Shown one piece after another: positions 4,286-18,674 of a stretch of DNA of 35,884 nt (its first letter is position 1; every line of letters begins with the position of its first letter). Source of the DNA: a virus; the IMG/VR virus record IMGVR_UViG_3300021431_000053; one strand, 5' to 3'. The notes under the pieces are model-generated. The model was not told the DNA's origin, did no database searches, and saw only the letters and a program-made list of their open reading frames with translations. The translations under genes were made by a program, and so were the position numbers.

Positions 4286-4361
4286 GAGCGAAAGCTCTTT
4301 CCTCACTTGGTGAGGTAATGGTAACACATTTTTTGTAACTCCTCAACAGGAAGGAGAAATA

Positions 4362-4475: not shown

Positions 4476-4726
4476 TGCAGTTAACATTGAAAGCATGGAG
4501 AATCAATGCGGGATTATCGCTTGAAGATGTCGCTTCAATTTTAGGAAAGACGCCCAGAACAATACAAAATTGGGAAAGTGGGTTTAACATTCCTGATAAA
4601 GCTAACGTTTATAAGCTTGCGAAAATATATAACACAACAATTGACAATATTTTTTTGGGAAATCATTCCGCTTTAAGCGAAAGATATAAGAATAATAAAG
4701 AACAACTACAAAAAGGAGATGAATAA
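4475..4726 (+). CDS. Cro-like XRE-family HTH regulator
   Basis: The HTH is LSLEDVASILGKTPRTIQNWESG. I prefer the GTG at 4475, behind GAGGGGGTGG. The Cys-rich N-terminal extension in the ORF track (from 4418) has no RBS. Confidence 0.75.
   Translation: MQLTLKAWRINAGLSLEDVASILGKTPRTIQNWESGFNIPDKANVYKLAKIYNTTIDNIFLGNHSALSERYKNNKEQLQKGDE
4666..4679. promoter_or_regulatory. Distal operator copy TTCCGCTTTAAGCG inside the 3' end of the cro-like gene
   Basis: The 12-mer TTCCGCTTTAAG is identical to 4128..4139. CGCTTTAAGCG is the reverse complement of the palindrome at 4149..4159. Confidence 0.5.
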
Positions 4727-4728
4727 AA

Positions 4729-6104: not shown

Positions 6105-6358
6105 ACGAAAACATCAGCGTTGATGAAGTAATGAGAATCACGCACAAGTCGCGTGATTTCATAATCAATGCGATTGAAAACGGATCGTTTCCTGGAAGCT
6201 TCACGAAAACAAAGAACGGCACGAGATGCGTGCACATTCCTCGAAAGGCTTTCGAGGAGTACATGAACCACTTCTACAGGAAGACAAGCGATGAACTGAT
6301 CATTGCTCTTGTAGACGAGCTGACAAGGAAAAAAGCTATAGGAGGACAACGGAAATGA
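6101..6358 (+). CDS. Excisionase-family/MerR-like HTH DNA-binding protein (possible Xis or early regulator)
   Basis: The motif VDEVMRITHKSRDFIINAIENGSFPG...VHIPRKAFEEYM is typical of excisionase-type HTH_17 proteins. The start overlaps the preceding stop (ATGA). Confidence 0.5.
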   Translation: MNENISVDEVMRITHKSRDFIINAIENGSFPGSFTKTKNGTRCVHIPRKAFEEYMNHFYRKTSDELIIALVDELTRKKAIGGQRK

Positions 6359-6459
6359 AGATGACAACAAGAGGCAAGGTTACGTTAGTAATCTTCTGGA
6401 TTGCAATCTACTGCCTGGCATGCTGCTTAAATGCAGATGCTGACTGGTGGATCTGGTAG
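6355..6459 (+). CDS. 34-aa small membrane peptide (MKMTTRGKVTLVIFWIAIYCLACCLNADADWWIW)
   Basis: ATG follows GGAGGA by eight nt and overlaps the upstream stop (ATGA). It has one hydrophobic helix. Confidence 0.45.
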   Translation: MKMTTRGKVTLVIFWIAIYCLACCLNADADWWIW

Positions 6460-6476
6460 AAAGGAGGAAAAAAGCA

Positions 6477-6683
6477 ATGTACGAAGACAAGCAGATGATA
6501 TGCGACAAGCTACTGATTGCTCTCAGATACACGTCTCATCTCTATGACCTGCTTCGACTCACATATGATGACGAGAAGGAAATCGTCACTGCAATGTTCG
6601 ACAACGGTCATGAGAAGCGTGTTAACGTCCACATTGACAGCGGCTATGCGATGATCCAGGACATCATTGATGCGCTGAGATAG
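6477..6683 (+). CDS. Hypothetical early protein (68 aa)
   Basis: ATG at 6477, behind AAGGAGGAAAAAAGCA. The ORF-track start at 6447 lacks an RBS. Confidence 0.6.
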   Translation: MYEDKQMICDKLLIALRYTSHLYDLLRLTYDDEKEIVTAMFDNGHEKRVNVHIDSGYAMIQDIIDALR

Positions 6684-6696
6684 GAGGCGGCTACTA

Positions 6697-6843
6697 ATGA
6701 AACTACAGAACCCGACGCTAGTGAACAAGGAACTATATGAAAGAGTAGAAGAGATAAGAGTCCAGAAGACTCTCATAAAGATATTCATAACAATTGCGAT
6801 AGCTTCAGTAGTGTTCACTGCAATGACGGTTATCGCTAGCTAA
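6697..6843 (+). CDS. 48-aa tail-anchored membrane protein (MKLQNPTLVNKELYERVEEIRVQKTLIKIFITIAIASVVFTAMTVIAS)
   Basis: ATG is seven nt after TAGGAGGCGG. It has a C-terminal TM helix and is below the ORF-track size cut-off. Confidence 0.5.
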   Translation: MKLQNPTLVNKELYERVEEIRVQKTLIKIFITIAIASVVFTAMTVIAS

Positions 6844-7170
6844 AACTGAATAATAACCGGTGGAGCTATGGGGCAGCCACGAGGAGGATAGGCTCGTTTC
6901 ATTGTCAAAAAATCATCTGACTTAATTCTCCTTTTATCGATTGATAAATATTATTTTTCATAGTTATCCAGCACCTCCTGATATCACGTAACTTTTTATA
7001 GCTGGATATAAATAAAATCCCATTAAACGTAAAAAAGAGCTGTGCACAATCCTTCTCGGACTGCGCCACGGCTCCATCGGACAAAGAAAAATCCCCCTCG
7101 ATATAAGAGGAGGAAAACATGAACAAGACTATTGTAGCACAAATAACATCAAACACAACGGAGGAAAAAC

Positions 7171-7497
7171 ATGAACAAGGAAAAGAATTTTTTAAAGGTA
7201 GAAATCATAGATGAAGGAATTGTTGTCAGCGGAAATGGACACCCGGCTTTCGTGAAGTCAATGGCTGCACTGGGAATGGCGCATCTCTTTGCTGAAACTG
7301 ATGAAGACGAGCCTAACATCGATCACTTCATCGCCATGATCAGACTAGCGTGCGATGATAAGGAGTATTTTGCAATACTCAAAAGTGCGCTGAGCCTGTA
7401 TGTCAGAGATGAGGACGAAGGCCTTCAGGCATTAGCTATGGCCATGACAGTAGCAATATATGCCGATGAGAAAGAAAAGGGAGTGATGAGCGCATGA
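7171..7497 (+). CDS. Hypothetical acidic 108-aa protein, first gene of the recombination operon
   Basis: GGAGGAAAAAC precedes the ATG. The sequence is rich in Asp and Glu (AETDEDEPNIDH, VRDEDEG). Confidence 0.65.
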   Translation: MNKEKNFLKVEIIDEGIVVSGNGHPAFVKSMAALGMAHLFAETDEDEPNIDHFIAMIRLACDDKEYFAILKSALSLYVRDEDEGLQALAMAMTVAIYADEKEKGVMSA

Positions 7498-8429
7498 TGG
7501 ACGTCATCAGAAAAAGAATACCGGAGACGCGTGACGAATGGCTTGAGGACAGGATGCAGGGGATCGGCGGAAGCGACGCGGGCGCCGTGCTGGGGTTCAA
7601 CCAGTACAAGTCGCCATACACGCTGTGGTGCGAGAAGACAGGAAGGATTGATTCAGACGTTCCGGACAACGAAGCCATGCGCCAGGGCCGTGACCTTGAG
7701 GACTACGTCGCACACAGATGGATGGAGGCGACAGGCAAGAAGGTCCGCAGGAGCGGATTCTCCTTCCAGTCGAGGGAGCACCCATTCATGCTCGCAAATG
7801 TGGACAGACTTGTCATAGGCGAGAAGGCAGGGCTTGAGTGCAAGACAGCAAACGCCCTTACAAGAACGAAGTACGACAGGGGAGACATACCTGCATCGTA
7901 CTATGCGCAGTGCATGCACTACATGGCAGTGACCGGGCTTGAACGGTGGTACATCGCCATCCTTGTGATGGGCAAGGGCTTCTACACCTACACCATAGAG
8001 CGTGATGATAGGGAGATAGAGGCACTGATCAGCGCCGAGGAGGACTTCTGGAACGGCGTTGAAACGGACACGGAGCCTGAGATAGACGGCTCGGCATCAA
8101 CTGCCGATACCATTGCGTTACTCAATCCCGAAAGCAGCGGAGAGACTGAGGACATCCCCGAGCTTGAGGGCGATGCGGCCATGCTTGATGACATATCATC
8201 AAGAATCAGGGAGCTCGAGGCAATGAAGAGGCAGTACGAGAACCGCATCAAGGACGCAATGAAGGATGCCGAGAAGTGCGACACGGGAAATGCCGTTGTC
8301 ACGTGGAAGACAGTGACATCGGGCAGGCTTGACACGAAGAAGCTGAAGGCCGAGATGCCTGAGGTATACGAGAAGTACGTGAAGCAGTCATCATCAAGAC
8401 GCTTCACGATGAAAATGAAGAGCAAATAG
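7494..8429 (+). CDS. YqaJ-type (lambda-Exo-like, PD-(D/E)XK) recombination exonuclease
   Basis: It has GIGGSDAGAVLGFNQYKSPYTLWCEKTG, then DRLV...GLECKTA and YYAQCMHYMAVTG, followed by an acidic C-terminal tail. Confidence 0.85.
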   Translation: MMDVIRKRIPETRDEWLEDRMQGIGGSDAGAVLGFNQYKSPYTLWCEKTGRIDSDVPDNEAMRQGRDLEDYVAHRWMEATGKKVRRSGFSFQSREHPFMLANVDRLVIGEKAGLECKTANALTRTKYDRGDIPASYYAQCMHYMAVTGLERWYIAILVMGKGFYTYTIERDDREIEALISAEEDFWNGVETDTEPEIDGSASTADTIALLNPESSGETEDIPELEGDAAMLDDISSRIRELEAMKRQYENRIKDAMKDAEKCDTGNAVVTWKTVTSGRLDTKKLKAEMPEVYEKYVKQSSSRRFTMKMKSK

Positions 8430-8443
8430 AGGAGGAAAAGAAA

Positions 8444-9247
8444 ATGGATGCAACAACAAACCAGCAGGGCGCAATCGCAAAGAGCACAGGAGCAGCGCCA
8501 ACAAAGAGGGGGAGAGCCCCACAGACGATAAGGGACTACATCAAGGTCTACGAGAAGGAGGTTGCCAAGGCGCTTCCTAGCGTGATGACTCCCGAGAGAT
8601 TCACGAGAATCGTGACGACGGCCATCACGAACACGCCGAAGCTTGCCGAGTGCACGCCTCAGTCATTCGTGGGCGCAATGCTCAACTGCGCGCAGCTCGG
8701 GCTTGAGCCTAACACTCCGCTGGGACAGGCCTACCTCATCCCTTACGGCAAGCAGTGCCAGATGCAGATAGGATACAAGGGACTGCTTGACCTTGCCTAC
8801 AGAAGCGGTCAGGTGTCAACGGTCTATGCCGAGACGGTATACGAGAACGACACGTTCGACTACGAGCTTGGGCTTGAGCCGAAGCTGAAGCACCATCCGG
8901 CCATGAGCGACAGGGGCGAGCCCGTCTACTACTATGCCGTGATCAAGCTCAAGGGCGAGGGAGTCGTATTCCAGGTCATGAGCCGCGACGACATCGAGAA
9001 GCACGCACGCAAGTACTCGAAGAGCTACAACAACGGGCCATGGAAGACCGACTTCGACGCAATGGCAAAGAAGACCGTGCTCAAGCAGGCACTCAAGTAT
9101 GCGCCTCTCAAGACGGAGTTCGCAAGGGACGTGGCACAGGATGACACGATCAAGCACTTCGACCCTCACGACGCTGACATGAGCATGGCCGACAAGCCAT
9201 CTGATTTCATTGACGTGGAAGCGACTGAGCACCCTCAGGAAGGATAG
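8444..9247 (+). CDS. recT: RecT-family single-strand annealing protein
   Basis: It has FVGAMLNCAQLGLEPNTPLGQAYLIPYG...IGYKGLLDLAYRSGQV, and it is paired with the YqaJ exonuclease. Confidence 0.9.
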   Translation: MDATTNQQGAIAKSTGAAPTKRGRAPQTIRDYIKVYEKEVAKALPSVMTPERFTRIVTTAITNTPKLAECTPQSFVGAMLNCAQLGLEPNTPLGQAYLIPYGKQCQMQIGYKGLLDLAYRSGQVSTVYAETVYENDTFDYELGLEPKLKHHPAMSDRGEPVYYYAVIKLKGEGVVFQVMSRDDIEKHARKYSKSYNNGPWKTDFDAMAKKTVLKQALKYAPLKTEFARDVAQDDTIKHFDPHDADMSMADKPSDFIDVEATEHPQEG

Positions 9248-9288
9248 GCTGACGCCCGATGAAGGCAGCTGGAGGGGACGGAGGCGGC

Positions 9289-9597
9289 ATGTGGCTGAAG
9301 CTCCCATACGACTTCATGGAGAACGAGACGATGAGGGGGCTAAGCCCCGCGTGCCTCAAGCTCTACATCCACTGCCTTCTGAGCGCCTCAAGGAAGAACA
9401 GGGTGGTGGACGGCGAGCCGGTTGCAAAGGGGGCTTTCATCTCGTCCGTAAGACAGCTTGAAAGGGATACGGGGATAAGCCATGCGACGGTTCAGAAGAG
9501 CCTGAAAATCCTAAACGAGAAGGAGCTCATACTATCCTATTCAAAGCGTAACGGTGCGACTGTCATACACATCGTGGACTTCGAGAGGTATCTATGA
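9289..9597 (+). CDS. Winged-helix replication initiator / replisome-organizer-like protein
   Basis: It has WLKLPYDFMENETMRGLSP..., then VRQLERDTGISHATVQKSLKILNEKELI. It is followed directly by the iteron array. I prefer ATG 9289, behind GGAGG. Confidence 0.5.
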   Translation: MWLKLPYDFMENETMRGLSPACLKLYIHCLLSASRKNRVVDGEPVAKGAFISSVRQLERDTGISHATVQKSLKILNEKELILSYSKRNGATVIHIVDFERYL

Positions 9598-9598
9598 G

Positions 9599-9690
9599 GT
9601 GTACTAAAAACTAGCACACTAGTGTACTAAAAATTAGTACACCACTGTACTAAAAACTAGCACACTAGTGTACTAAAAATTAGTACACCC
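9599..9690. repeat. Iteron array: four 23-bp units (two alternating variants, equivalent to 2 x 46 bp), each an inverted repeat
   Basis: GTGTACTAAAAACTAGCACAC occurs at 9599 and 9645. GTGTACTAAAAATTAGTACAC occurs at 9622 and 9668. The arms GTGTACTAA/TTAGTACAC are perfect. Confidence 0.85.
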
Positions 9691-9748
9691 CCATCTATAT
9701 ATATAAGAGAATGTATAGAGAGTGTAAGAGAATGTAAGAGAGTGGGTG
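9691..9748. other. Putative DNA-unwinding element: (TA)n tract plus four helically phased ~10-bp repeats
   Basis: CTATATATATAA is followed by AAGAGAATGT / AGAGAGTGTA / AGAGAATGTA / AGAGAGTGGG. Confidence 0.55.
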
Positions 9749-9872
9749 TTGCTGCTTCTGTATGAATATAGTAGGAGCGGCAAAAACGGCACAGCACAGC
9801 CATCTCAATGGCTTATATCTGATTATTTCTCTATTTGTGAAAATCCTAAATGACAGGAAGGTGAGTGAGTGA

Positions 9873-10310
9873 ATGAACAGGAGCGAAGCTAAGAGAGCCA
9901 TTGCCATCGTAAGGTCCTTCTATCCTAGGATGGAGAGCGGCGATGACGTGGTTGACATGTGGGAAATGATGCTTTCAAGGTTCAGCTTCGATGACGTCAA
10001 GCTTGCGATAGCTTCCATCATGAAGCGAAGCAGGTTCCAGCCTAACTGCGCAGACATACTCCGTGAGCTGGAGTCAGGGACATACGAGGTGACTGTTGAC
10101 AACGAGCACCAGCGCATCGTAGTAAGGACTGTCACAAGGGGAATATTCCCTTTCCGTTGCTGGAACGGCGACGAGGCGAGAAGCCTCAAGACGTGGCTTG
10201 ACATGAGTCCGAGCGTTGACGCCATCGCACAGCGCCACCAGAGATGGAACAGCGATCACATCGAGGCAACCATAAGGGGTTATGAGGCCTATGCTGAAGG
10301 TGCAGGCTGA
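9873..10310 (+). CDS. Putative helicase-loader-like replication protein (G39P-like N-terminus)
   Basis: The pattern AKRAIAIVRSFYPR...DMWEMMLSRFSFDDVKLAIASIMKRSRFQPNCADIL resembles SPP1 G39P-type loaders. The assignment comes from memory only. Confidence 0.35.
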   Translation: MNRSEAKRAIAIVRSFYPRMESGDDVVDMWEMMLSRFSFDDVKLAIASIMKRSRFQPNCADILRELESGTYEVTVDNEHQRIVVRTVTRGIFPFRCWNGDEARSLKTWLDMSPSVDAIAQRHQRWNSDHIEATIRGYEAYAEGAG

Positions 10311-10473
10311 TGCCGAGAGCTTCGAGGAGCTCATGGACATCTACTACAGGCAGTACTTCACGGACTACTCGCTGACTGGATACAGGATGCGCAGGAGGGA
10401 CAATGATACGGAGCCCCTTGCAGTCCTGTGGCTCAGCGAGAGGGAACCTGAGAAAGACAGAAAAAAAGAATAG
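10282..10473 (+). CDS. Hypothetical protein
   Basis: The ORF overlaps the upstream gene's end, and its composition is consistent with the neighbouring genes. Confidence 0.45.
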   Translation: MRPMLKVQADAESFEELMDIYYRQYFTDYSLTGYRMRRRDNDTEPLAVLWLSEREPEKDRKKE

Positions 10474-10703
10474 TGATGATACCGGGCATTTCCATCGGAC
10501 GCGGCTGGGCATTAAATCTTATGTTAACGACGTATAGTTAAGTGCACTCCATTTATAGCGCACCTGCGCCGCAGTCTGATGAATGAATAAAAAATGGTCT
10601 GACGGTTCCTGCTGCGGCGTGGGTGATTACCATCTCATGGCCACAGCCGTGCCGGATGGAGGTGCCCGGACAGAAAGATGATGAAAGGAATGATCATAAG
10701 GCA

Positions 10704-11219
10704 ATGGCAATAATACTTGCGATAGATCCCGGAACGTCAGAGAGCGGCTACGTCGTGGCTGACTATGAGACGCTCAGGCCGCTGAGGTTCGGCAAGGAAG
10801 ACAACGCGACGATCATCGGCATCATAGGCGACGTGCTCGGTTCATCAAGTGACGAATGCACTGTCGCTCTTGAGATGGTGGCAAGCTACGGAATGCCTGT
10901 CGGACGCGAGGTCTTCGAGACCGTGCGATGGATAGGCAGGTTCGAGCAGCACATAAGGGACGGATTCCCAGGCACGGAGATAAGGTACGTCTACCGGAGG
11001 GAAGTTAAGCTGGCAATATGCCACTCACCAAAAGCCAATGACGCAACGATCAGGAGGGCGCTTGCCGACAGGTTCGCATACGGGACAAGGAACGGAGGCA
11101 AGGGCACAAAGAAGGAGCCTGGATTCTTCTACGGGTTCCGTGCCGACATATGGCAGGCGTTCGCTGTCGCGGTGACATGCCACGATGCAATCGAGAAGGA
11201 AAAGGGAAGGATATTCTAG
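10704..11219 (+). CDS. RuvC-like Holliday-junction resolvase
   Basis: MAIILAIDPGTSESGY places the catalytic Asp near the N-terminus. It also has VALEMVASYG and IWQAFAVAV. The ORF-track extension from 10623 is discounted. Confidence 0.7.
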   Translation: MAIILAIDPGTSESGYVVADYETLRPLRFGKEDNATIIGIIGDVLGSSSDECTVALEMVASYGMPVGREVFETVRWIGRFEQHIRDGFPGTEIRYVYRREVKLAICHSPKANDATIRRALADRFAYGTRNGGKGTKKEPGFFYGFRADIWQAFAVAVTCHDAIEKEKGRIF

Positions 11220-11233
11220 AAAGGAGGACATGA

Positions 11234-11308
11234 ATGATGGAACTTGTTGTATTCATAATCGCTTTTGTATACGTCATGCTGATGATTGCAGTCATGAGCA
11301 ATTTTTAG
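11234..11308 (+). CDS. 24-aa hydrophobic peptide (MMELVVFIIAFVYVMLMIAVMSNF)
   Basis: ATG is six nt after AAGGAGGA. It consists of a single TM helix. Confidence 0.35.
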   Translation: MMELVVFIIAFVYVMLMIAVMSNF

Positions 11309-11323
11309 GAGTAAGAGAATGCT

Positions 11324-11566
11324 ATGGTAAGTTTTTATAGAACATGCAGATACAAAAATGAAAGTTATATATTTCATTGTTTTGAACAGTATTCTAATGT
11401 TGTAGGGGAATCGATTGCTATTGGTGGACATTCAGCAGGGCAGATTAGTTTGGTATTCGACATAATTGAAGATAGAAAGGGAAATATCTACCGTGTTGAT
11501 CCTACAGCGATTACATTTACTGATGATAAATACTTTGATTATGATTGTGAGGTTGAAGAAAGATGA
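11324..11566 (+). CDS. Hypothetical 80-aa protein ending in DCEVEER (AT-rich island)
   Basis: The ORF has a C-terminal CEVEE junction motif shared with the next two genes. Confidence 0.55.
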   Translation: MVSFYRTCRYKNESYIFHCFEQYSNVVGESIAIGGHSAGQISLVFDIIEDRKGNIYRVDPTAITFTDDKYFDYDCEVEER

Positions 11567-11952
11567 TAGCTAAGGAGATATATGAAAGAGAAATTGTTCG
11601 CATGTGGGACAGCTTGCGTGATGATAGATTCAAAGGATGTGATGATTGTGTTGGCGTAATTTGTAAGGTATGCCCAATTTATGATGCGGAATATGATAAT
11701 TGTCATCTTTATAATGACGTTTATAACGCTGTTGAAAGGTGGACCAGTAATCACCCGCTAAAAAAATTCAAGGTGTCAAAGCTTGAATACGATATCATTC
11801 GTGCCGCGATTGACTATAGTTCGGAAGAAGAAGCTTTTAAAGATGTTGATATTCTATATGAGCTTCTAATAAATGGATATTTCCAAGGTGCTACAAGAGA
11901 TATGACTATAAATTATTATTTTGACAATTGCGAGGTTGAATATGATAGATAA
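11563..11952 (+). CDS. Cys-rich hypothetical protein, paralog A (CxxCxGVxCxxCP)
   Basis: MIAKEIYEREIVRMWDSLRDDRFKGCDDCVGVICKVCP. It ends in NCEVEYDR. Confidence 0.65.
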   Translation: MIAKEIYEREIVRMWDSLRDDRFKGCDDCVGVICKVCPIYDAEYDNCHLYNDVYNAVERWTSNHPLKKFKVSKLEYDIIRAAIDYSSEEEAFKDVDILYELLINGYFQGATRDMTINYYFDNCEVEYDR

Positions 11953-12397
11953 AGAAACATATGAAAGAGAAATCACAAGAATGTTTGACAGCGTGCGCAC
12001 AAAAAACAAAGGTTGCAGTGACTGTCGCGGGGTTCCTTGTTCACGATGCCCACTCGAAGGACAATGTAGAATTACTGCTTGGAACGTATTCAAAATGATT
12101 GAATTTGTTGAGCAATGGTCAAAAGAACATCAGCCAAAAAAGCTAACAAGATTTGAATTTGAGATGTTGAAATGGTTAGAAAAAGAAGGCTATAAATTCA
12201 TTATAAGAAGTCCAAATAATAATCTGATAGCACATGATAGCACACCTAAAAAAGTTTTGAATGGATGGGTTTCTGGAAGTAGATACAAGTATCTTTCGCC
12301 GTTTGATGAGTTATTATGTTTTATCAAATGGGAAGACGAAGAACCTACATCAATTCAAGATGTTTTAAAGAATTGCGAGGTGAAGGAAGATGTATGA
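11942..12397 (+). CDS. Cys-rich hypothetical protein, paralog B
   Basis: MIDKETYEREITRMFDSVRTKNKGCSDCRGVPCSRCP. It ends in NCEVKEDV. I place the start at ATG 11942, five nt after GAGGT. Confidence 0.65.
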   Translation: MIDKETYEREITRMFDSVRTKNKGCSDCRGVPCSRCPLEGQCRITAWNVFKMIEFVEQWSKEHQPKKLTRFEFEMLKWLEKEGYKFIIRSPNNNLIAHDSTPKKVLNGWVSGSRYKYLSPFDELLCFIKWEDEEPTSIQDVLKNCEVKEDV

Positions 12398-12560
12398 ACA
12401 CGTGAGAGAGATCATCGATGACCTGAAATACGTTATCGCAGACCTTGTGAATGACGTTCGAAATGGCAAAGTAAAGCAGTCAGAGATACTTGACGAGCTC
12501 GGCGACAGTCTTGAGCAGTACTGCGGGATTTACATTGACGAGGAGATCAAGAATGATTGA
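12390..12560 (+). CDS. Hypothetical acidic 56-aa protein (MYEHVREIIDDLKYV...)
   Basis: ATG follows GAGGTGAAGGAAG. The ORF overlaps both neighbouring genes and is below the ORF-track cut-off. Confidence 0.5.
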   Translation: MYEHVREIIDDLKYVIADLVNDVRNGKVKQSEILDELGDSLEQYCGIYIDEEIKND

Positions 12561-12678
12561 AATAGGTTTTGCTGTCATGCTGGTCATGCTGGCATTTTTC
12601 ATCGGTCTTTTCCTGGGAGCTGTCGTGCTGGGACTGGCAATAGCGTCGTCAAGAGAAGACGATTATAGAGGGCGGTGA
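12553..12678 (+). CDS. 41-aa membrane peptide (MIEIGFAVMLVMLAFFIGLFLGAVVLGLAIASSREDDYRGR)
   Basis: ATG is seven nt after GAGGAG and overlaps the upstream stop (ATGATTGA). Confidence 0.5.
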   Translation: MIEIGFAVMLVMLAFFIGLFLGAVVLGLAIASSREDDYRGR

Positions 12679-13091
12679 TTGTATTGCACTTTGATAGCAG
12701 AAGAGAGCTTGTTGATTATCTCAAGCAGTACAAAAGCTACAGGGAAGAGCTTGAGTGCATTGAGAAGGACATTGGTATACATTCCCCTTCATTGTCTGAA
12801 GAAGGAATGAACGGATATGCAAGCAAGATTGCACAGTACAACATGCGGCTGTCACGAAAGCATGAGCTGGAGGAAAAGATGAAGGAGATTGAAGGAGTGG
12901 TCAATCTCCTCAAGGACAGTGATGAGATATGCTGGAAGATCATACATTACAAGTATATTGACTATCATGTTACAGAGTACGGATACTTTGACCATGATGA
13001 CTACTCAAAGCGTATAGGATACTCAAGTTCAAGCATCTATCACACGTATCACAGGAAGGCAATAAACATGTTGCTTGATTTGTGTGAATGA
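12675..13091 (+). CDS. ArpU/RinA-like late-gene transcriptional regulator (sigma region-4-like C-terminus)
   Basis: It is about 138 aa and lies directly upstream of terS. The C-terminal HTH-like segment is SKRIGYSSSSIYHTYHRKAINML. Confidence 0.5.
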   Translation: MIVLHFDSRRELVDYLKQYKSYREELECIEKDIGIHSPSLSEEGMNGYASKIAQYNMRLSRKHELEEKMKEIEGVVNLLKDSDEICWKIIHYKYIDYHVTEYGYFDHDDYSKRIGYSSSSIYHTYHRKAINMLLDLCE

Positions 13092-13159
13092 CTGCACAAC
13101 AATGCATTGCTTTGCAATAAAATTATATAGTATTATGTAAATGTGGAAATAGAAAGAGA

Positions 13160-13208
13160 GGGACATGACATCATGCCCTAAGGACCTGAAGTGGTCCTTT
13201 TTCTTTTG
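13160..13208 (+). terminator. Hairpin plus intrinsic terminator directly upstream of terS
   Basis: GGG(A)CATG-ACAT-CATGCCC at 13160..13178. AAGGACC-TGAAGT-GGTCCTT at 13180..13199, followed by TTTCTTTTG. A possible promoter TTGCTT-18-TATTAT lies at 13107..13136. Confidence 0.55.
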
Positions 13209-13237
13209 CAAGTTTGCTGATGAAGGGAAGTGATGGC

Positions 13238-13675
13238 ATGAAGATGACTGCAAAGCAAGAAAGGTTCGTACAGGAGTATCTCATTGACCTTAACGCGACA
13301 CAGGCAGCCATCCGTGCCGGATACTCCAGGAAGACGGCAGGCGTCATTGGTGTCGAGAACTTAAAAAAACCTTATATCAGGGAAGCAATTGAAGAGAAGC
13401 TCAAGCAGATCGACGATGAGAAGACAGCCGATGCCAAGGAGATACGTGAGTTCTGGACGAGGGTCATGAGAGGCGACGAGAAGGAGACCGTGCTCCGCTA
13501 TGACGGTGAAGGCCACCAGGTCGAGACGGAGATAAGCGTCTCCATGAAGGACCGCATCAAGGCCTCGGAGATGCTTGGCAAGTCGTTTGCGATGTTCACG
13601 GACAAGATAGACTCCAACGTGGACATGGACCTGAACATAGAGGTGGACTATGGAGATCAGGGTTCAGGCGAATAG
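13238..13675 (+). CDS. terS: Terminase small subunit (Terminase_2/P27 family)
   Basis: MTAKQERFVQEYLIDLNATQAAIRAGYSRKTAGVIGVENLKKPYIREAIEE. Confidence 0.9.
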   Translation: MKMTAKQERFVQEYLIDLNATQAAIRAGYSRKTAGVIGVENLKKPYIREAIEEKLKQIDDEKTADAKEIREFWTRVMRGDEKETVLRYDGEGHQVETEISVSMKDRIKASEMLGKSFAMFTDKIDSNVDMDLNIEVDYGDQGSGE

Positions 13676-14894
13676 GTCTTTCCGTGACGCTGACAGCTCA
13701 AAATGCCGGTACATCGTAATGAAGGGAAGCGCCGGCTCAGGAAAGAGCGTGGATACGGCACAGCACTACATACTGCGCCTCATGAAGGACCCTGGACGCA
13801 ATCTCCTTTGCGTGCGGAAGTCAGACGTTACAAACCGTGATAGTACCTTTGCTGAGCTGCAGGGTGCTATTTTTCGCATGTTCGGAGAGAAGTGGAAGCT
13901 TTACTGGTACATCAACTCCAGCAACATGCTTCTTGAGTGCCGGGCAAATCACAACCAGATCATCTTCCGGGGAGTGAATGACGACAAGCAGCGCGAAAAG
14001 CTGAAGTCCATCACGTTCAAGCGTGGGAAACTGACGGATGTATGGATCGAGGAAGCGACGGAACTGATGCAGTCTGACTTCGAAATAATCGATGACCGAC
14101 TGCGTGGCGAGCTTCCACCTGGACAGTTCTACCAGATACGGCTGACGTTCAACCCGGTGAGCGCTTCGCACTGGATCAAGGCACAGTTCTTTGACCGCAA
14201 GGACCCTGATGTCTTCACGCACAGCTCGACTTACAAGAGCAACCGCTTCATCGATGAAGGCTACTACCGACGCATGGAGCGACGAAAGGAAGTTGACCCG
14301 GAAGGATATAGGATCTATGGATTGGGCGAATGGGGAGAAACAGGCGGATTGATTCTTCACAACTATGTAGTTGAGGATTTCAACATCTCCCCCGAGCGGT
14401 TTGACTACATGGTCAATGCCCAGGACTTCGGCTTCAACCATGCGGACTGCCTTCTTGAGGTCGGTTTCAAGGACGATGAAATCTATATCTGTCGAGAGAT
14501 GTATGAATACGAGAAGGATACCGATGAGCTGATAGCCATCGCTGACAGCCGAGGATTCCGCAGGAATATCCGCATGTGGTGTGACTCGGCCGAGCCTGAC
14601 CGCATCAAGATGTGGAAGAAGGCCGGATACAAGGCAAAGGGCGTCAACAAGGAGAAAAATTCGGTGCACGCACAGATTGACTATTTGAAGCAGCACAAGA
14701 TACATATCCATCCGGACTGTATCAATGTATATAAAGAAATTCAGCAATGGAAGTGGCAGAAGGATACGAGAACGAACACGTACCTTGACGAGCCAGTTCC
14801 TTTTTTTGACGATGCAATGGCAGCACTGAGGTACTCGATAGAGACCATGCGAAAGCCTGCCATCGGATACAACAAAGTAGGAGGTGGATTATAA
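13650..14894 (+). CDS. terL: Terminase large subunit (PBSX family)
   Basis: Walker A is GSAGSGKS and Walker B-like is DVWIEEATE. The C-terminal nuclease region is AQDFGFNHADCLL...CDSAEPDRI. Confidence 0.9.
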   Translation: MEIRVQANRSFRDADSSKCRYIVMKGSAGSGKSVDTAQHYILRLMKDPGRNLLCVRKSDVTNRDSTFAELQGAIFRMFGEKWKLYWYINSSNMLLECRANHNQIIFRGVNDDKQREKLKSITFKRGKLTDVWIEEATELMQSDFEIIDDRLRGELPPGQFYQIRLTFNPVSASHWIKAQFFDRKDPDVFTHSSTYKSNRFIDEGYYRRMERRKEVDPEGYRIYGLGEWGETGGLILHNYVVEDFNISPERFDYMVNAQDFGFNHADCLLEVGFKDDEIYICREMYEYEKDTDELIAIADSRGFRRNIRMWCDSAEPDRIKMWKKAGYKAKGVNKEKNSVHAQIDYLKQHKIHIHPDCINVYKEIQQWKWQKDTRTNTYLDEPVPFFDDAMAALRYSIETMRKPAIGYNKVGGGL

Positions 14895-16282
14895 TGCCAC
14901 AGCAGAATGTAAGACCAGCCATCATTCCCGATGAGCTCATATGCATGTCCGATGATGAGGAGATGACAGTGACTAAGCTCGGGGAGCTGATTGCAAAGCA
15001 CAAGAACCTGATCACGAACCGATACAGGATACTGAGGGATGCGTACATGAACGTCTATCCCAACCTCATGTGGAAGGACAAGGAGGACTGGAAGCCCGAC
15101 AACCGCGTGACGGTCAACTTCGCAAAGTATCTCGTCGATACCTTCAATGGGTATTTCATCGGGATTCCAATCAAGGTCCAGTCGGATGATGCAAGAGTCA
15201 CCGATTACCTTGACATGCTTGACTCGTACAACGACATCGATGACAACAACGCCGAGCTGAGCCGCATATGCTCGATCTATGGCAAGGGATATGAGCTGTA
15301 CGCCAATGACGAGAGAGGGGAGATCTCAATCGTCTATCTTGACCCTACGGAGGGATTCATGGTGTATGACAACACATATGAGCAGCATCCGGTATACTTC
15401 GTGACGTACTACTATGACTCGAAGAAAATCATGCATGGGGAAGTGCTTACACCAGCCGAAGTATGGCCGTTCACGGATGATGGCGGCCTGCATTACATCG
15501 AGGATGGATTCCGCTCTCATAGCTTCAGTGACATCCCTGCAACGGAGTTCCTGGAGAACGAGTCACGCATAGCCGTGTTCGAGTCCGTGTACTCGCTTAT
15601 CGTGGGATACAACAAGGCGCTTTCCGAGAAGCTGAACGATGTCGATGCATTTGCTGATGCATACCTCAAGATTCTCGGTCCAAAACTGAATGATGACATG
15701 CTCAGGGACATGAGAGATCACCGCGTCATCTCGTTCGAGGGTGATATGTCAGAGAATCCTGTGGATGTGGGATTCCTTGAGAAGCCCAATGCCGATACGA
15801 CGCAGGAGAACGCACTCAACCGCATGGAGAGACTGATCTACCAGGTGTCCATGATTGCGAACATCAATGACGAGAACTTCGGCAACAGTTCAGGCATTGC
15901 CATGGCTTATAAATTACAGTCCATGTCAAACCTGGCGAAGACGAAGGAGAGAAAGTTCACGTCGGGGCTCAACCGAAGATACCGCATCATCTTCTCCAAT
16001 CCGGTCAACTCGATGTCCGATAATGACTGGATCGGGCTGAGCTACCACTATACGCGCAACCTCCCTCAGAACATCCTCGAGGAGACGCAGATTGCCCAGA
16101 ACCTTTCAGGCATCGTGTCACAGCCAACGCAGCTATCAGTATTGTCGATTGTGGATGACCCTAAGAAGGAAATCGAGCGAATCGATGAGGAGCAGCGCGA
16201 AAGCAATGATGCGGTCGTCAACCGCTTCTACGGAAGCAATCCCGTATACCCGTCAGTAAAGGCAGGCAGCAATGAGCAGTAG
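14894..16282 (+). CDS. Portal protein (SPP1 gp6-like)
   Basis: It follows terL with a TAATG overlap. It has VTVNFAKYLVDTFNGYFIGIPIKV, and its size of 462 aa fits. Confidence 0.85.
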   Translation: MPQQNVRPAIIPDELICMSDDEEMTVTKLGELIAKHKNLITNRYRILRDAYMNVYPNLMWKDKEDWKPDNRVTVNFAKYLVDTFNGYFIGIPIKVQSDDARVTDYLDMLDSYNDIDDNNAELSRICSIYGKGYELYANDERGEISIVYLDPTEGFMVYDNTYEQHPVYFVTYYYDSKKIMHGEVLTPAEVWPFTDDGGLHYIEDGFRSHSFSDIPATEFLENESRIAVFESVYSLIVGYNKALSEKLNDVDAFADAYLKILGPKLNDDMLRDMRDHRVISFEGDMSENPVDVGFLEKPNADTTQENALNRMERLIYQVSMIANINDENFGNSSGIAMAYKLQSMSNLAKTKERKFTSGLNRRYRIIFSNPVNSMSDNDWIGLSYHYTRNLPQNILEETQIAQNLSGIVSQPTQLSVLSIVDDPKKEIERIDEEQRESNDAVVNRFYGSNPVYPSVKAGSNEQ

Positions 16283-17822
16283 CGCCGATTACTGGAGAAG
16301 AAGGGAGGAGGCACAGCGTGCCCACAACATCACCGACGAAAGGGAATATGCCAGGGAGATAAACAGGATCTATGAGTCAATGCTTGACAGCATAGAGGAG
16401 CAGATAAACAGCTTCTATGCGAAGTATGCGAGCGCTGAGGGCATATCCATGGCCGAGGCCAGGAAGCGTGCTGCGAGCCTTGACATCGAGAGGTACGCCA
16501 GGAAGGCCGAGAGGTATGTCGATGAGAGGAACTTCTCGGCAAAGGCTAACGAGGAGATGAGGCTCTACAACCTCACGATGAAGGTCAACCGCCTCGAGCT
16601 TCTCAAGGCGAACATCGGGCTTGAGCTCGTAAGCGGGCACGACGAACTTGAGAGTTTCATGGAGGAGAAGATAGGTGACGCTACGGAGGACGAGCTGAGA
16701 CGACAGGCCGGCATTCTTGGAAAGACGGTCATCAACAATGCGAAGACTGCACATGTGATCGTCAATGCGTCCTTCCACAACGCGACATTCAGCGACAGGA
16801 TATGGATGCACCAGGACCTACTGAGAAATGACATCAACAGCCTCATCCAGGTCGGGCTTATCCAGGGAAAGAACCCGAGGGTGCTTGCAAGGGAGCTAAG
16901 AAGGAAGTTCAAGGTCAAGAAGTCGGATGCCGAGAGGCTGATGCGCACCGAGATGGCAAGGGCGAGAACCGATGCACAGATGCGCGAGTACGAGGAGAAC
17001 GGCTTCGGAGAGTACAAGTACATAGCCTGCGGCGGCTCTGACGTGTGCGAGGTGTGCAAGAAGATGGACGGAAAGGTGTTCAGCGTGAAGAAGATCATGC
17101 CTGGCGTCAACGCCCCTCCCATGCACCCAAACTGCCACTGCTCGACTGCTCCGTACATTGACGAGAAGAAGTACTACGAGTGGCTTGACTCCTACGATCA
17201 GCACCATATGAGCTACAATGACTGGATTGAGCATGAAAACATAGCAAGAGAGGAAGGTCTGAGAACGAAAAAAGGAATGCCTAATGCCGTTAATTGGAAA
17301 ATTGTGAAGTCTAAAGAATATTCGCAAAGATTTAGTAAATTATCTGAAAATACCAAAGCAAATGAATTGGCTGCACAACGTGCAAGGCAGGCATTAAAAC
17401 ATAGAGATGGCACAATGACAGAAGAAATTTATGCAATTGATTTAAAAACGGGAAAAGATATTTCTAGAATAGTAAATCAAAATTATATCCAAGGTGTTAA
17501 GAGAACAAAAAAATTCATTGAGGATGTTGAAAGAGCAGAAGCAAATGGAGCAAATGTTTTGTTTATACATAATCATCCTAATGGATTGATTCCAAGCTTA
17601 GCTGATTTAAATGAATTATTAAATCATGAAAATGCTTCTGGATTGGTTGTTGGACACGATGGAAGCATTTATTTTTATACAAAACCAGATATAAAACTTA
17701 GTGAAAATGATTTTACTATTGCATACCTAAAATCAAGATATTATACTGATGTAAAGCTAAAAAATGAATCAGCTATGGAAGAATTAGCGAGAATGCATAA
17801 ATTTGTGTTTAAAGTTTTATAG
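16272..17822 (+). CDS. Minor head protein (MuF / SPP1 gp7 family) fused to a C-terminal RadC/JAB(MPN)-like domain
   Basis: The MuF core motif is CEVCKKMDGKVFSVKKIMPGVNAPPMHPNCHCSTAPY. The C-terminal ~190 aa are visibly AT-rich from about 17260 and carry FIHNHPNGLIPSLADL (nt 17568..17606), which resembles RadC HNHPSG-x3-PS-x2-D with one fewer spacer residue. Confidence 0.8.
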   Translation: MSSSADYWRRREEAQRAHNITDEREYAREINRIYESMLDSIEEQINSFYAKYASAEGISMAEARKRAASLDIERYARKAERYVDERNFSAKANEEMRLYNLTMKVNRLELLKANIGLELVSGHDELESFMEEKIGDATEDELRRQAGILGKTVINNAKTAHVIVNASFHNATFSDRIWMHQDLLRNDINSLIQVGLIQGKNPRVLARELRRKFKVKKSDAERLMRTEMARARTDAQMREYEENGFGEYKYIACGGSDVCEVCKKMDGKVFSVKKIMPGVNAPPMHPNCHCSTAPYIDEKKYYEWLDSYDQHHMSYNDWIEHENIAREEGLRTKKGMPNAVNWKIVKSKEYSQRFSKLSENTKANELAAQRARQALKHRDGTMTEEIYAIDLKTGKDISRIVNQNYIQGVKRTKKFIEDVERAEANGANVLFIHNHPNGLIPSLADLNELLNHENASGLVVGHDGSIYFYTKPDIKLSENDFTIAYLKSRYYTDVKLKNESAMEELARMHKFVFKVL

Positions 17823-17833
17823 AGGTGAATATT

Positions 17834-17998
17834 ATGAGTAAAGATTCAAAACAAGATGAATATATCTGTGATGACCGTTTTGATTTAATCAAATTCTCAA
17901 ATAAAATAGACGCAATGTCGCAAAAAGAAAAAGAAGAATTTTTAAAACTGGTTCACGCTAATAAGGTTGATTTCAGTGAATTCTATATAGAATCTTGA
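17834..17998 (+). CDS. 54-aa acidic protein (MSKDSKQDEYICDDRFDLIKFSNKIDAMSQKEKEEFLKLVHANKVDFSEFYIES); candidate partner or immunity protein of the MuF C-terminal domain
   Basis: ATG is five nt after AGAGGTGA. It shares the AT-rich composition of the MuF C-terminus and is followed by a terminator. Confidence 0.5.
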   Translation: MSKDSKQDEYICDDRFDLIKFSNKIDAMSQKEKEEFLKLVHANKVDFSEFYIES

Positions 17999-18022
17999 GC
18001 ACGATTTATATCGCGCTTTTTT
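17998..18022 (+). terminator. Intrinsic terminator inside the head-gene operon
   Basis: AGCACGAT-TTAT-ATCGCGCT (one mismatch), followed by TTTTTT. Confidence 0.45.
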
Positions 18023-18036
18023 AATGCAAGAAATAG

Positions 18037-18204
18037 AGGATTAAACAAGACTACTGGAAAATTAAATCACATATAACCAGCGAGTTTTTTGCACATTTCA
18101 TTGAAGCACAGTTTGACTCGGAAAGAAGGAAAATTCTTGAAAGCACGTTTCCTGAAAGCTATAATTACGTTGAGGAGATGCTTAAAAGGAGGAAGCCAAA
18201 ATGA
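18037..18204 (+). pseudogene. Start-less 55-codon open frame (RIKQDYWKIKSHITSEFFAHFIEAQFDSERRKILESTFPESYNYVEEMLKRRKPK*), probably a displaced 3' gene remnant
   Basis: The frame opens after TAG at 18034..18036. It has no in-frame ATG, GTG or TTG until nine codons from the end. Its stop overlaps the next gene's start (ATGA at 18201..18204), as expected for a formerly coupled upstream gene. Confidence 0.35.
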
Positions 18205-18446
18205 AAATTATAAAATCTTTTTTAAGGGTGGCAAAAAAACGACATGCTTTTGCTGATATGTTTGGCTATGATCCTGACATGCCTAGAGCTGTATTATTTG
18301 GTCCACAGGAAGAAAGCGACGAGTATGAGGCTTTGCTGGATAAAAGCTTAGCCGATAAGAAGGACTACCTGGAGATCAAGTACGGGTATGACGCTGATGC
18401 AATCCGTGAAAGAATAGAAAAAAACAGATATATATTTTACGATTAA
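18201..18446 (+). CDS. Hypothetical 81-aa protein
   Basis: AAAAGGAGGAAGCCAAA precedes the ATG. Confidence 0.65.
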   Translation: MKIIKSFLRVAKKRHAFADMFGYDPDMPRAVLFGPQEESDEYEALLDKSLADKKDYLEIKYGYDADAIRERIEKNRYIFYD

Positions 18447-18471
18447 AAGTCACCGCCATGGTGGCTTTTTT
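18445..18471 (+). terminator. Intrinsic terminator
   Basis: AGTCACC-GCCAT-GGTGGCT (one G-U pair), followed by TTTTTTG. Confidence 0.5.
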
Positions 18472-18485
18472 GATAGGAGAACATA

Positions 18486-18674
18486 ATGAAAAAAGACAAT
18501 CACTCAGGCGGTGGGATAGGCTTTTGCGGAGCATTGACCATCGCCTTTATTGTGCTGAGGCTTTGCCACATCGTTGACTGGTCATGGTGGATCGTACTGC
18601 TGCCTGCACTGGTTAAGGCGGCAATCATCCTGGTAATATTCATTGTTTTAGTCATTGCTGAACTGTCGGACTGA
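18486..18674 (+). CDS. Small two-TM membrane protein (Fragile-X-F-like DWSWW motif)
   Basis: LRLCHIVDWSWWIVLLPALV lies between two hydrophobic helices. The RBS is AGGAGA. Confidence 0.6.
   Translation: MKKDNHSGGGIGFCGALTIAFIVLRLCHIVDWSWWIVLLPALVKAAIILVIFIVLVIAELSD

What the first reader, a model, noticed from the sequence alone, without database searches (positions are those of the whole stretch)
16272..18022. MuF/gp7 head protein fused to an AT-rich RadC/JAB-like C-terminal domain, followed by a small acidic ORF and a terminator (polymorphic-cargo cassette)
The first ~300 aa are a standard MuF/SPP1-gp7 domain. From about nt 17260 the composition drops sharply in GC, and the remaining ~190 aa end in a domain carrying FIHNHPNGLIPSLAD. 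This resembles the JAMM/RadC metal-binding motif HNHPSG-x3-PS-x2-D, with the spacer one residue shorter here.

MuF domains are known carriers that package variable C-terminal toxin or effector domains into capsids (MuF polymorphic toxins, polyvalent proteins). Those are often followed by a small immunity gene. Here a 54-aa acidic ORF (17834..17998) and a terminator follow, all with the same foreign composition.

A virion-delivered JAB-type isopeptidase or peptidase would be injected with the DNA. It could act on host proteins, for example by removing ubiquitin-like or other conjugates used by defence systems. That function is inference only.
Basis: partly seen in the sequence, partly recalled or inferred. 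Interest (0 to 1): 0.7.

Follow-up and report, generated by a model that had tools for sequence, protein, structure and literature searches.

The report
Phage head protein carrying swappable JAB enzyme
A temperate phage's portal-associated MuF head protein has had its tail end replaced by a foreign, RadC-like JAB metal-enzyme module that travels with a tiny acidic partner gene; this is a new cargo type for the known MuF "polymorphic toxin" system and a possible handle on what RadC-like enzymes do.

Summary
ORF 16272..17822 (516 aa) is a MuF/SPP1-gp7 head protein directly after the portal gene. GC falls from 54% to 30% at about nt 17235. Residues 330-516 form a confidently predicted JAB/MPN fold (pLDDT 93.7) with E384, H433, H435, S442 and D445 conserved family-wide. 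The HxH-x6-S-x2-D spacer, one residue shorter than canonical, is a clade signature (145 of 161 relatives).

Right after the JAB cassette lies a 40-codon pseudogene stub (18052-18171) of a different, HExxH-type MuF C-terminus. It is followed by that domain's intact 81-aa partner gene, as in Streptococcus phage Javan351.

Orthologous MuF N-termini (57-66% identity) carry at least 9 unrelated C-terminal classes. Each has its own small downstream ORF.

The JAB clade is large (1,080 clusters at 50% identity). It sits mostly on MuF or minor-capsid proteins, falls below all Pfam JAB thresholds, and lies nearest RadC.

It is best read as a new cargo member of the known MuF polymorphic toxin/effector system, with the 54-aa acidic protein as cognate neutraliser. 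Substrate, toxicity and virion delivery are untested. The ubiquitin-like deconjugation idea has no specific support.

The parts
14894..16282 (+). Portal gene (SPP1 gp6-like), immediately upstream of the MuF gene and overlapping its start
   Evidence: Pfam SPP1_portal E=2.8e-115. TerS and TerL lie upstream.
16272..17237 (+). MuF/SPP1-gp7 carrier part of the 516-aa ORF (residues 1-322), native composition (GC 0.54). It ends in the conserved junction motif EWLDsY..H.MsY.dW.
   Evidence: PF04233 residues 187-292, TIGR01641, PHROG 115. 57-66% identical to 70+ orthologues whose sequences diverge right after this motif.
17238..17822 (+). Foreign C-terminal part (GC 0.30). It consists of a short linker and the ~187-aa module (residues 330-516, nt 17259-17819). 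The module is an N-terminal three-helix subdomain (V.W....S..Y..RF) plus a RadC-like JAB core.
   Evidence: GC. AF2 pLDDT 93.7, pTM 0.89. Foldseek JAMM1, RadC, AMSH, BubCD, CSN5. Profile to RadC 2qlc E=5e-4. 1,080 relatives.
17421..17606 (+). Predicted catalytic constellation: E384 (17421-17423), H433 and H435 (17568-17576), S442 (17595-17597), D445 (17604-17606). Spacing is HxH-x6-S-x2-D.
   Evidence: Invariant or nearly invariant columns in A5 (107 sequences) and A6 (26 sequences). Motif census 145 of 161. Aligned to the RadC motif.
17834..17998 (+). 54-aa acidic partner ORF (pI 4.8), with a GAGGTG ribosome-binding site at 17822-17827. Proposed cognate neutraliser (immunity) of the JAB module.
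   Evidence: Homologous small ORFs follow the JAB gene in L002, L003, L004, L007, AC844P2 and MissF. Other JAB subtypes have their own small acidic ORF. It is retained 100% identical in L102, where the JAB is destroyed.
17997..18024 (+). Hairpin plus U6: a modest intrinsic-terminator-like element closing the JAB cassette. The cassette's 3' border is about 18056.
   Evidence: -8.4 kcal/mol, z=-2.2. Not called by the consensus scan. L102 homology ends at 18056.
18049..18200 (+). Pseudogene stub: the last ~40-50 codons of a different, displaced MuF C-terminal domain (HExxH ... SEFFAH type). It has no start codon and has stop codons upstream.
   Evidence: blastn to the Javan351 MuF 3' end, 76%. 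tblastn of Javan351 MuF residues 543-582 against window 18052-18171: 77.5% aa identity, E=1.3e-14. Alignment and translation.
18137..18165 (+). Sigma-70-like promoter (TTGAAA-17-TATAAT, 11 of 12) inside the stub, upstream of the 81-aa ORF
   Evidence: The same hexamers are conserved within the Javan351 coding sequence. It is a consensus match only; the count of such sites in the region is not above shuffles.
18201..18446 (+). 81-aa ORF: orphan partner of the displaced HExxH-type CTD. It is intact and has an AGGAGG ribosome-binding site.
   Evidence: 49-51% identical to Javan351_0033 and JavanS343_0014, which sit directly after the intact CTD and after a 65-codon stub respectively.
18445..18475 (+). 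Second hairpin plus U-tract, closing the older cassette layer
   Evidence: -12.2 kcal/mol, z=-2.8.

Best explanation
The gene encodes a MuF polymorphic toxin/effector. Residues 1-322 are the conserved MuF/gp7 carrier. By analogy with SPP1 gp7, this part is recruited to the procapsid through the portal and leaves the capsid with the DNA.

The last ~190 residues are a horizontally acquired enzyme module from a low-GC phage lineage. It has a three-helix subdomain and a RadC-like JAB metallohydrolase core with an intact E/HxH/S/D centre.

The module moves as a two-gene cassette (about 17235-18056) together with a 54-aa acidic protein and its own terminator. It entered by recombination, with the 5' crossover at the conserved end of the MuF domain. 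It displaced an earlier HExxH-type C-terminal domain. That domain's 3' stub, an apparent internal promoter and the intact 81-aa partner gene remain downstream.

Proposed mechanism (inferred): the JAB enzyme is carried in the virion and acts in the newly infected cell on a nucleic-acid, nucleotide or protein substrate. The small acidic protein binds and neutralises it in the producing or lysogenic cell. Orphan partners are kept because they protect against the same cargo delivered by related phages.

Shown here: domain identities, fold, conserved catalytic residues, foreign composition, polymorphism of the C-terminus, the displaced stub, and the conserved subtype-specific small partner. Inferred: virion packaging and ejection, toxicity, neutralisation, and substrate.
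For: MuF identity and canonical position after the portal.

Temperate phage: integrase, and a 127-bp terminal repeat showing a complete assembly.

GC step from 0.54 to 0.30.

JAB fold and catalytic set.

Polymorphism: 73 complete orthologues fall into at least 9 CTD classes, each with a different small downstream ORF.

The module also occurs as a stand-alone gene that starts exactly at the module boundary and keeps the small ORF (L002, L004, L007).

Displaced-CTD stub plus intact orphan partner in the window.

Two further independent cases of a stub plus an intact partner: satellite Javan343 and L102 for the JAB cassette itself.

Zero differences between the window and L008 across 16800-18200, against 1.7-3.8% in the flanks, consistent with a recent recombination tract.

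Of 107 family representatives, 68 carry MuF or Phage_min_cap2, 4 carry VG15 and 1 a portal domain.

MuF toxins with C-terminal toxic domains and downstream immunity genes are experimentally established for other cargoes (PMC5576092, PMC12226406).
Against: There is no experimental evidence that this CTD is toxic, is packaged, or binds the 54-aa protein.

The small partners are unusually short (37-62 aa) for immunity proteins, and their mutual similarity is weak.

Charge complementarity is not general: only 15 of 26 CTDs are basic.

No Pfam JAB model reaches its gathering score on the window protein. The Foldseek PDB scores are modest (best E=4e-3, TM 0.40/0.55).

Metal-ligand geometry could not be inspected.

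L102 is a single 1.4-kb metagenomic contig and could be chimeric.
Confidence: 0.6

Rival explanations
1. Injected anti-defence isopeptidase. The JAB domain is a DUB-like enzyme that strips ubiquitin-like or CD-NTase conjugates made by host systems (Bil/Bub, or type II CBASS as a Cap3 mimic). The small ORF would be a chaperone or adaptor rather than an immunity protein.
For: The top Foldseek hit is a bona fide deubiquitinase homologue, PfJAMM1 5ld9, and BubCD also appears. 13 of 26 members give sub-threshold Prok-JAB hits. Virion delivery would place the enzyme in the cell before defence fires (inference). MuF-fused effectors are proposed to be injected (PMC5512222).
Against: The nearest clade is RadC (18 of 26; RadC 2qlc is the only significant profile hit). 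It has the HNHP signature rather than H[ST]HP. Published analyses argue that RadC-type JABs lack the Ubl-tail groove (PMC5512222, PMC3482391). No PADLOC Cap3 or defence-JAB model matches. Retention of orphan small partners after loss of the enzyme fits immunity better than a chaperone.
Confidence: 0.2
2. Phage-autonomous housekeeping role. The JAB module serves the phage's own life cycle, for example by processing head proteins or the packaged or ejected DNA end bound by MuF/gp7. It would not target the host.
For: MuF/gp7 proteins bind the portal and DNA (established knowledge on SPP1 gp7). RadC-type JABs are predicted to act on nucleic acids (PMC3239186). PHROG neighbours of this family carry labels such as 'head maturation protease'.
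Against: Orthologous MuF proteins replace this module with unrelated domains (an unrelated ~190-aa class that I read as ART-like from its motifs, HExxH types, a 111-aa domain and others) or carry different cargo, so it is dispensable for morphogenesis. It has foreign composition and travels with a private small gene, also outside MuF contexts. A separate Prp-type maturation protease is encoded nearby.
Confidence: 0.07
3. Catalytically irrelevant remnant. The AT-rich tail is a decaying or merely structural appendage, and the small ORFs are chance ORFs in AT-rich DNA.
For: The small ORFs are short and weakly conserved. L006 shows that this very gene can decay into fragments in a prophage remnant.
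Against: The catalytic E/H/H/S/D set and further G, H.G and Y positions are invariant across relatives down to about 20% identity. The fold prediction is of high confidence. There are 1,080 clusters with the domain at a fixed distance from the C-terminus. A small ORF with a ribosome-binding site is present in every locus checked that has downstream sequence.
Confidence: 0.03

Closest known systems
MuF polymorphic toxins of temperate phages (Jamet et al. 2017, PMC5576092; Apk2 (p)ppApp-synthetase toxins, PMC12226406)
   Same: N-terminal MuF domain next to the portal gene. A variable C-terminal enzymatic domain swapped by recombination. A small ORF immediately downstream. Encoded by a temperate phage.
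   Different: The cargo is a RadC-like JAB domain. That cargo does not appear in the main text or the held supplements of that survey. The partner is only 54 aa. Toxicity and immunity are unproven here.
RadC-type JAB domains (Pfam PF04002; PDB 2qlc), including RadC domains of phage and plasmid 'polyvalent proteins' (Iyer et al. 2017, PMC5512222)
   Same: HNHP...PS..D signature with an upstream Glu. Deaminase-like/JAB fold. Occurrence in mobile elements. Only the profile-level sequence hit is significant.
   Different: The spacer between HxH and S is one residue shorter in essentially all members. A family-specific three-helix N-terminal subdomain replaces the HhH domain. A GH.G..Y.Y motif is present. 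Scores lie far below the RadC model cut-offs (19 against 180 bits in NCBIfam; no Pfam hit for the window protein).
Tox-JAB-1 (PF15659) and Tox-JAB-2 (DUF4329) toxin domains of classical polymorphic toxins (Zhang et al. 2012, PMC3482391)
   Same: A JAB domain used as the C-terminal warhead of a polymorphic toxin, with a dedicated downstream immunity gene. Predicted to be divergent from Ubl peptidases.
   Different: Those are listed with T2SS, T6SS, T7SS or RHS delivery and Imm65 or NTF2 immunity proteins, not with MuF. Only 2 of 26 members here give even sub-threshold Toxin-JAB1 hits, and DUF4329 is not among the 25 most-hit families listed.
Orphan toxin/immunity modules of CDI and Rhs loci (Poole et al. 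2011, cited in PMC5576092)
   Same: A displaced 3' toxin fragment and its intact immunity gene are retained downstream of the currently expressed toxin-immunity pair.
   Different: Here the carrier is a phage head protein. The array has a single orphan layer. The stub appears to keep a promoter for the orphan gene.

Membership tests
MuF / SPP1 gp7 minor head protein (PF04233, TIGR01641) | Profile HMM match above the curated cut-off | tested here: met
   PF04233: 70.8 bits against 29.6. TIGR01641: 98.3 bits against 39.65.
MuF / SPP1 gp7 minor head protein (PF04233, TIGR01641) | Gene position directly after the portal gene in the terminase-portal-MuF-scaffold-capsid module | tested here: met
   TerS, TerL, portal, MuF, Prp, scaffold, capsid and TMP in order.
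MuF / SPP1 gp7 minor head protein (PF04233, TIGR01641) | Incorporation into the capsid via the portal and ejection with the DNA | not testable with these tools
   Needs virion proteomics or biochemistry.
MuF polymorphic toxin system (Jamet 2017) | Conserved MuF N-terminus with unrelated, interchangeable C-terminal domains among close relatives | tested here: met
   At least 9 CTD classes among 73 complete orthologues at 57-66% N-terminal identity.
MuF polymorphic toxin system (Jamet 2017) | Encoded by a temperate phage or prophage | tested here: met
   Tyrosine integrase at 1-1131 on the minus strand. The remnant L006 sits next to bacterial genes.
MuF polymorphic toxin system (Jamet 2017) | Small ORF (<150 aa) immediately downstream, specific to the CTD type | tested here: met
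   54-aa ORF 11 nt after the stop codon. Partners differ by CTD class and JAB subtype.
MuF polymorphic toxin system (Jamet 2017) | The C-terminal domain is toxic and is neutralised by the downstream protein | not testable with these tools
   Indirect support only: orphan partners are retained after loss of the enzyme.
JAB/MPN (JAMM) metalloenzyme superfamily | JAB/MPN fold | tested here: met
   AF2 pLDDT 93.7. The top 15 PDB Foldseek hits are all JAB/MPN, best E=4e-3, TMt 0.55. Phage RadC and MPN proteins appear in BFVD.
JAB/MPN (JAMM) metalloenzyme superfamily | E-x(n)-H-x-H-x7-S-x2-D catalytic motif | tested here: inconclusive
   All five residues are present and conserved and align with RadC. 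The spacer is x6, not x7, in 145 of 161 members. The ligand geometry in the model could not be inspected.
JAB/MPN (JAMM) metalloenzyme superfamily | Match to a curated JAB-family HMM at its gathering score | tested here: not met
   The window CTD has no Pfam JAB hit at E<=1. Relatives are sub-threshold, for example Prok-JAB at 23.4 bits against a cut-off of 25.
RadC family proper (PF04002 / NCBIfam PRK00024, TIGR00608) | HMM score above the cut-off and the HhH-JAB architecture | tested here: not met
   PRK00024: 19.3 bits against 180. TIGR00608: 12.4 bits against 133.85. No HhH domain was detected; a family-specific helical subdomain is present instead. The HNHP signature is shared.
[quoted passage not shown] | Match to PF15659 or DUF4329 | tested here: not met
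   2 of 26 weak (E>=0.05) Toxin-JAB1 hits. DUF4329 is not among the 25 most-hit families listed.
Defence-system JAB deconjugases (Cap3, BilB and similar) | Match to PADLOC JAB-component models | tested here: not met
   No hit for the window CTD. One of 26 members hits a SAVED_TIR_JAB model at E=0.018.

The most novel reading that the evidence does not exclude
This locus represents a large clade (at least 1,000 clusters at 50% identity) of virion-carried, RadC-like JAB enzymes. I found no description or naming of the clade in the papers searched. Each enzyme is paired with a dedicated 37-62-aa acidic inhibitor. If the pair behaves as toxin and antitoxin, it would give the first simple genetic and biochemical assay for the activity of RadC-type JAB domains, which has been unknown since the 1980s. 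It could reveal a new injected activity: a nuclease or nucleotide hydrolase, or a deconjugase aimed at host immunity.
Probability: 0.3. Interest if true: 0.7.

Novelty: new member of a known kind. Interest (0 to 1): 0.45.

Why it matters
MuF polymorphic toxins are a recognised but little-tested way for temperate phages to deliver enzymes into bacteria. Only a few cargo types have been characterised, such as (p)ppApp synthetases.

This locus adds a cargo clade that standard domain models miss. It is common in gut and oral Firmicutes phages.

The locus also preserves a clear record of cargo replacement: a current cassette, a stub of the previous cargo, and its orphan partner.

Because the enzyme is RadC-like, a toxicity and neutralisation phenotype would make the long-unresolved biochemical function of RadC-type JAB domains directly testable.

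Tried and rejected
- Direct Pfam and PHROG scans of the CTD gave no meaningful hit.
- A single-sequence phmmer search against the PDB gave only noise.
- An Rfam scan of the whole window found nothing, so the AT-rich intergenic DNA match is not a known RNA.
- The word-indexed homologue search suggested a rare family of 15 hits. The exhaustive profile search corrected this to 1,080.
- The search for related loci with the alignment failed for lack of a conserved 7-10-residue stretch.
- The genome-contig scan found only distant JAB proteins in MAGs, so the host was not identified.
- Pattern scans for the 54-aa and 81-aa ORFs recovered only the two sister contigs.
- A basic enzyme paired with an acidic inhibitor was considered as support for a nuclease/immunity pair. 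It was dropped because only 15 of 26 CTDs are basic.
Folding shows a modest hairpin.
- The PADLOC scan for defence-type JABs was negative.
- An assembly chimera was considered and rejected because three independent contigs share the junction.


Full report
**Observation.**
The window is a complete temperate siphovirus assembly. Bases 1-127 repeat exactly at 35758-35884. The gene order is integrase, TerS, TerL, portal, MuF, Prp protease, scaffold, capsid and tape measure.

ORF 16272..17822 encodes 516 aa. Residues 187-292 match Phage_Mu_F (70.8 bits against a 29.6 cut-off). TIGR01641 phageSPP1_gp7 scores 98 bits, and PHROG 115 'minor head protein' covers residues 4-417.

GC is 0.54 over nt 16272-17237 and 0.30 over 17238-17822. 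It is 0.28 in the following 54-aa ORF, 0.36-0.37 up to 18446, and returns to about 0.5 by 18700.

FIHNHPNGLIPSLAD is residues 431-445. The 54-aa ORF (ATG 17834, GAGGTG ribosome-binding site) has pI 4.8.

The 'terminator' is a modest hairpin (17997-18018, -8.4 kcal/mol, z=-2.2) followed by U6. The consensus scan did not call it.

The junction is not an assembly artefact. Two IMG/VR contigs (L008, L009, 99% identical) and an ENA contig (L006, 93.5%) span it.

**What the C-terminal domain is.**
Alone, the CTD hits no Pfam or PHROG family. It matches NCBIfam RadC only weakly (E=7e-4, 19 bits against a 180 cut-off).

An AlphaFold2 model of residues 330-516 is confident (pLDDT 93.7, pTM 0.89). Its 15 best PDB matches are all JAB/MPN proteins: P. 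furiosus JAMM1, RadC 2qlc, AMSH, BubCD and CSN5. Scores are modest (best E=4e-3, TM 0.40/0.55). Cytidine deaminases, the sister fold, come next.

In BFVD the best matches are the C-termini of 'minor capsid proteins' of uncultured siphoviruses (TM up to 0.84, E=1e-13). Phage RadC and MPN proteins follow.

An exhaustive profile search of 1.84 billion representatives finds 1,080 clusters at E<=1e-3 and 672 at E<=1e-10. The domain is almost always at the extreme C-terminus.

Among 107 representatives, E, H, S and D are invariant. H, N, P, P, G, H.G and Y are conserved in at least 90%. In window numbering these residues are E384, H433, N434, H435, P436, P441, S442, D445, G457, H462, G464 and Y469.

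A profile of 26 diverse CTDs reaches RadC 2qlc at E=5e-4. Glu, HNHP and PS..D align, and RadC shows a one-residue insertion. The x6 spacer is present in 145 of 161 fetched members.

Sub-threshold Pfam hits fall on RadC (18 of 26), Prok-JAB (13 of 26) and Toxin-JAB1 (2 of 26). No PADLOC defence JAB model matches.

So this is a distinct RadC-like JAB clade with a clade-specific three-helix N-terminal subdomain. It is not a member of RadC proper by model score or architecture.

**Carrier and polymorphism.**
Of the 107 representatives, 38 carry Phage_Mu_F, 30 Phage_min_cap2, 4 VG15 and 1 a portal domain.

A search with the window's MuF N-terminus returned 80 viral loci. The 73 complete orthologues (57-66% identical over the first ~305-329 residues) diverge right after the motif EWLDGY..HG..F..WKK. 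They fall into at least 9 unrelated C-terminal classes:
- an unrelated ~190-aa class that I read as ADP-ribosyltransferase-like from its sequence motifs, not from a domain search (35 loci)
- a 111-aa domain (14 loci)
- JAB (12 loci, in four subtypes)
- several HExxH types and others

Each class is followed by its own small ORF.

This is the defining pattern of MuF polymorphic toxins (PMC5576092, PMC3482391). JAB and RadC do not appear as a MuF cargo in that survey's text or held supplements. No paper in the library links MuF with JAB beyond two comparative-genomics surveys.

**The small partner.**
A 37-62-aa acidic ORF starts within about 25 nt of the JAB gene's end, sometimes overlapping it. 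This holds in every locus examined that has downstream sequence: L002, L003, L004, L007, Anaerostipes phage AC844P2, Streptococcus phage MissF, and the L016, L062 and L049 subtypes.

Seven of the ten partners share a loose (E/D)(Y/W)..DDr.D...(M/L)(S/T).EE.E pattern. The partner changes with the JAB subtype.

The module also exists as a stand-alone gene that begins exactly at the module boundary (EESLR[ST]K), still with its partner. One example lies next to serine recombinases in L004.

Window 18052-18171 is 76% identical in DNA to the very 3' end of the MuF-like gene of Streptococcus phage Javan351. That gene carries a different, HExxH-containing C-terminal extension.

Translated, the window reads YWKIKSHITSEFFAHFIEAQFDSERRKILESTFPESYNYV. 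Javan351 reads YWEKKGNIESEFFAHVFEAQFDSERREILEKTFPESYNYV. That is 77.5% identity, E=1.3e-14.

The window copy has stop codons upstream and no start codon, so it is a pseudogene stub.

The next ORF (18201..18446, 81 aa, AGGAGG ribosome-binding site) is 49-51% identical to the gene that follows the intact CTD in Javan351. It ends in a stronger hairpin plus U-tract (-12.2 kcal/mol).

A promoter-like TTGAAA-17-TATAAT sits inside the stub and is conserved in Javan351's coding sequence.

The same 'stub plus intact partner' arrangement recurs twice more:
- In the satellite Javan343, with a 65-codon stub and no MuF.
- Reciprocally in L102. There only the last 47 JAB codons survive, but the 54-aa ORF is 100% identical in protein. 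Homology to the window stops at 18056 and resumes at 18512, which marks the cassette borders.

Between the window and L008 there are no differences across 16800-18200. The flanks differ by 1.7-3.8%, which suggests a recent recombination tract.

**Mechanism.**
Best supported (confidence about 0.6): this is a MuF polymorphic toxin/effector. Its warhead is a RadC-like JAB metallohydrolase delivered with the virion. The 54-aa protein neutralises it in the producer or lysogen. The 81-aa gene is an orphan immunity from a previous cargo.

The retention of intact small genes after loss of their enzyme, in three independent contexts, argues for a protective role rather than an assembly role.

The substrate is unknown. 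Published contextual analyses predict nucleic-acid or nucleotide substrates for RadC-type and toxin JABs (PMC3239186, PMC3482391, PMC5512222).

Here it is supported only by generic fold similarity.

A morphogenetic role (about 0.07) is unlikely because orthologues swap the domain freely. An inert remnant (about 0.03) is contradicted by the invariant catalytic set.

**Novelty and score.**
The kind of system is known: MuF polymorphic toxins, JAB toxin domains, and RadC domains in phage polyvalent proteins.

What is new:
- the combination of a MuF carrier with this cargo
- a sizeable JAB clade that I found neither described nor named in the papers searched, with an x6 spacer and a tiny acidic partner
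- a particularly clear fossil record of cargo replacement

This is a new member of a known kind. Interest is 0.45.

Noticed in passing
window 1-127 and 35758-35884: An exact 127-bp direct terminal repeat. The window is a complete, circularly closed assembly with about 35,757 bp of unique sequence.
   Followed up: yes
L006 (ENA k141_460266) 3452-4884, compared with window 35590-35884, 1-211 and 16767-17840: A decaying prophage remnant next to bacterial genes (GGGtGRT, HSP20, HTH_6/SIS; flank GC about 0.38). The window's two ends are joined, and about 16.5 kb (211..16767) is deleted. The remaining MuF-JAB gene is broken into four ORF fragments.
   Followed up: partly
window 18472-18695, compared with L008 6201-6628: The slot holding the 62-aa two-TM ORF (18486..18674) is replaced in the 98%-identical sister contig by a different ~430-bp segment encoding an unrelated 55-aa ORF. 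This is a second hypervariable 'moron' slot right after the cassette layers.
   Followed up: partly
window 18928-19263: The phage encodes its own Prp-type cysteine protease (PF04327, E=1e-21) between the cargo region and the scaffold gene. Presumably it processes head or scaffold proteins. A homologue sits at the same place in L049.
   Followed up: no
L103 (Streptococcus satellite phage Javan343, MK448444.1) 8674-9131: A 9-kb phage satellite carries an unannotated 65-codon stub of the Javan351-type MuF C-terminal domain (98.5% aa identity) plus the intact 85-aa downstream gene. It may be an orphan immunity gene carried by a satellite.
   Followed up: partly
L101 (Streptococcus phage MissF, OL799250.1) locus 3084-3242: The 52-aa partner ORF after the JAB-bearing minor capsid gene is annotated 'ATP-dependent RNA helicase'. 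This is almost certainly a mis-annotation of a tiny acidic protein.
   Followed up: no
L016/L020 5776-6069: In the L016-type JAB loci, the small partner is followed by a 97-aa ORF with an HExxH motif (LRHELVHAF). This is a possible additional small metallopeptidase-like gene in the cargo region.
   Followed up: no
window 18710-18931, and L020 6129-6341: A 73-aa ORF with a C..C-containing motif (YMCMICGR..HE.Y..YVPPPK) is conserved downstream of the cargo region in distantly related phages with different cargo. Its function is unknown.
   Followed up: no
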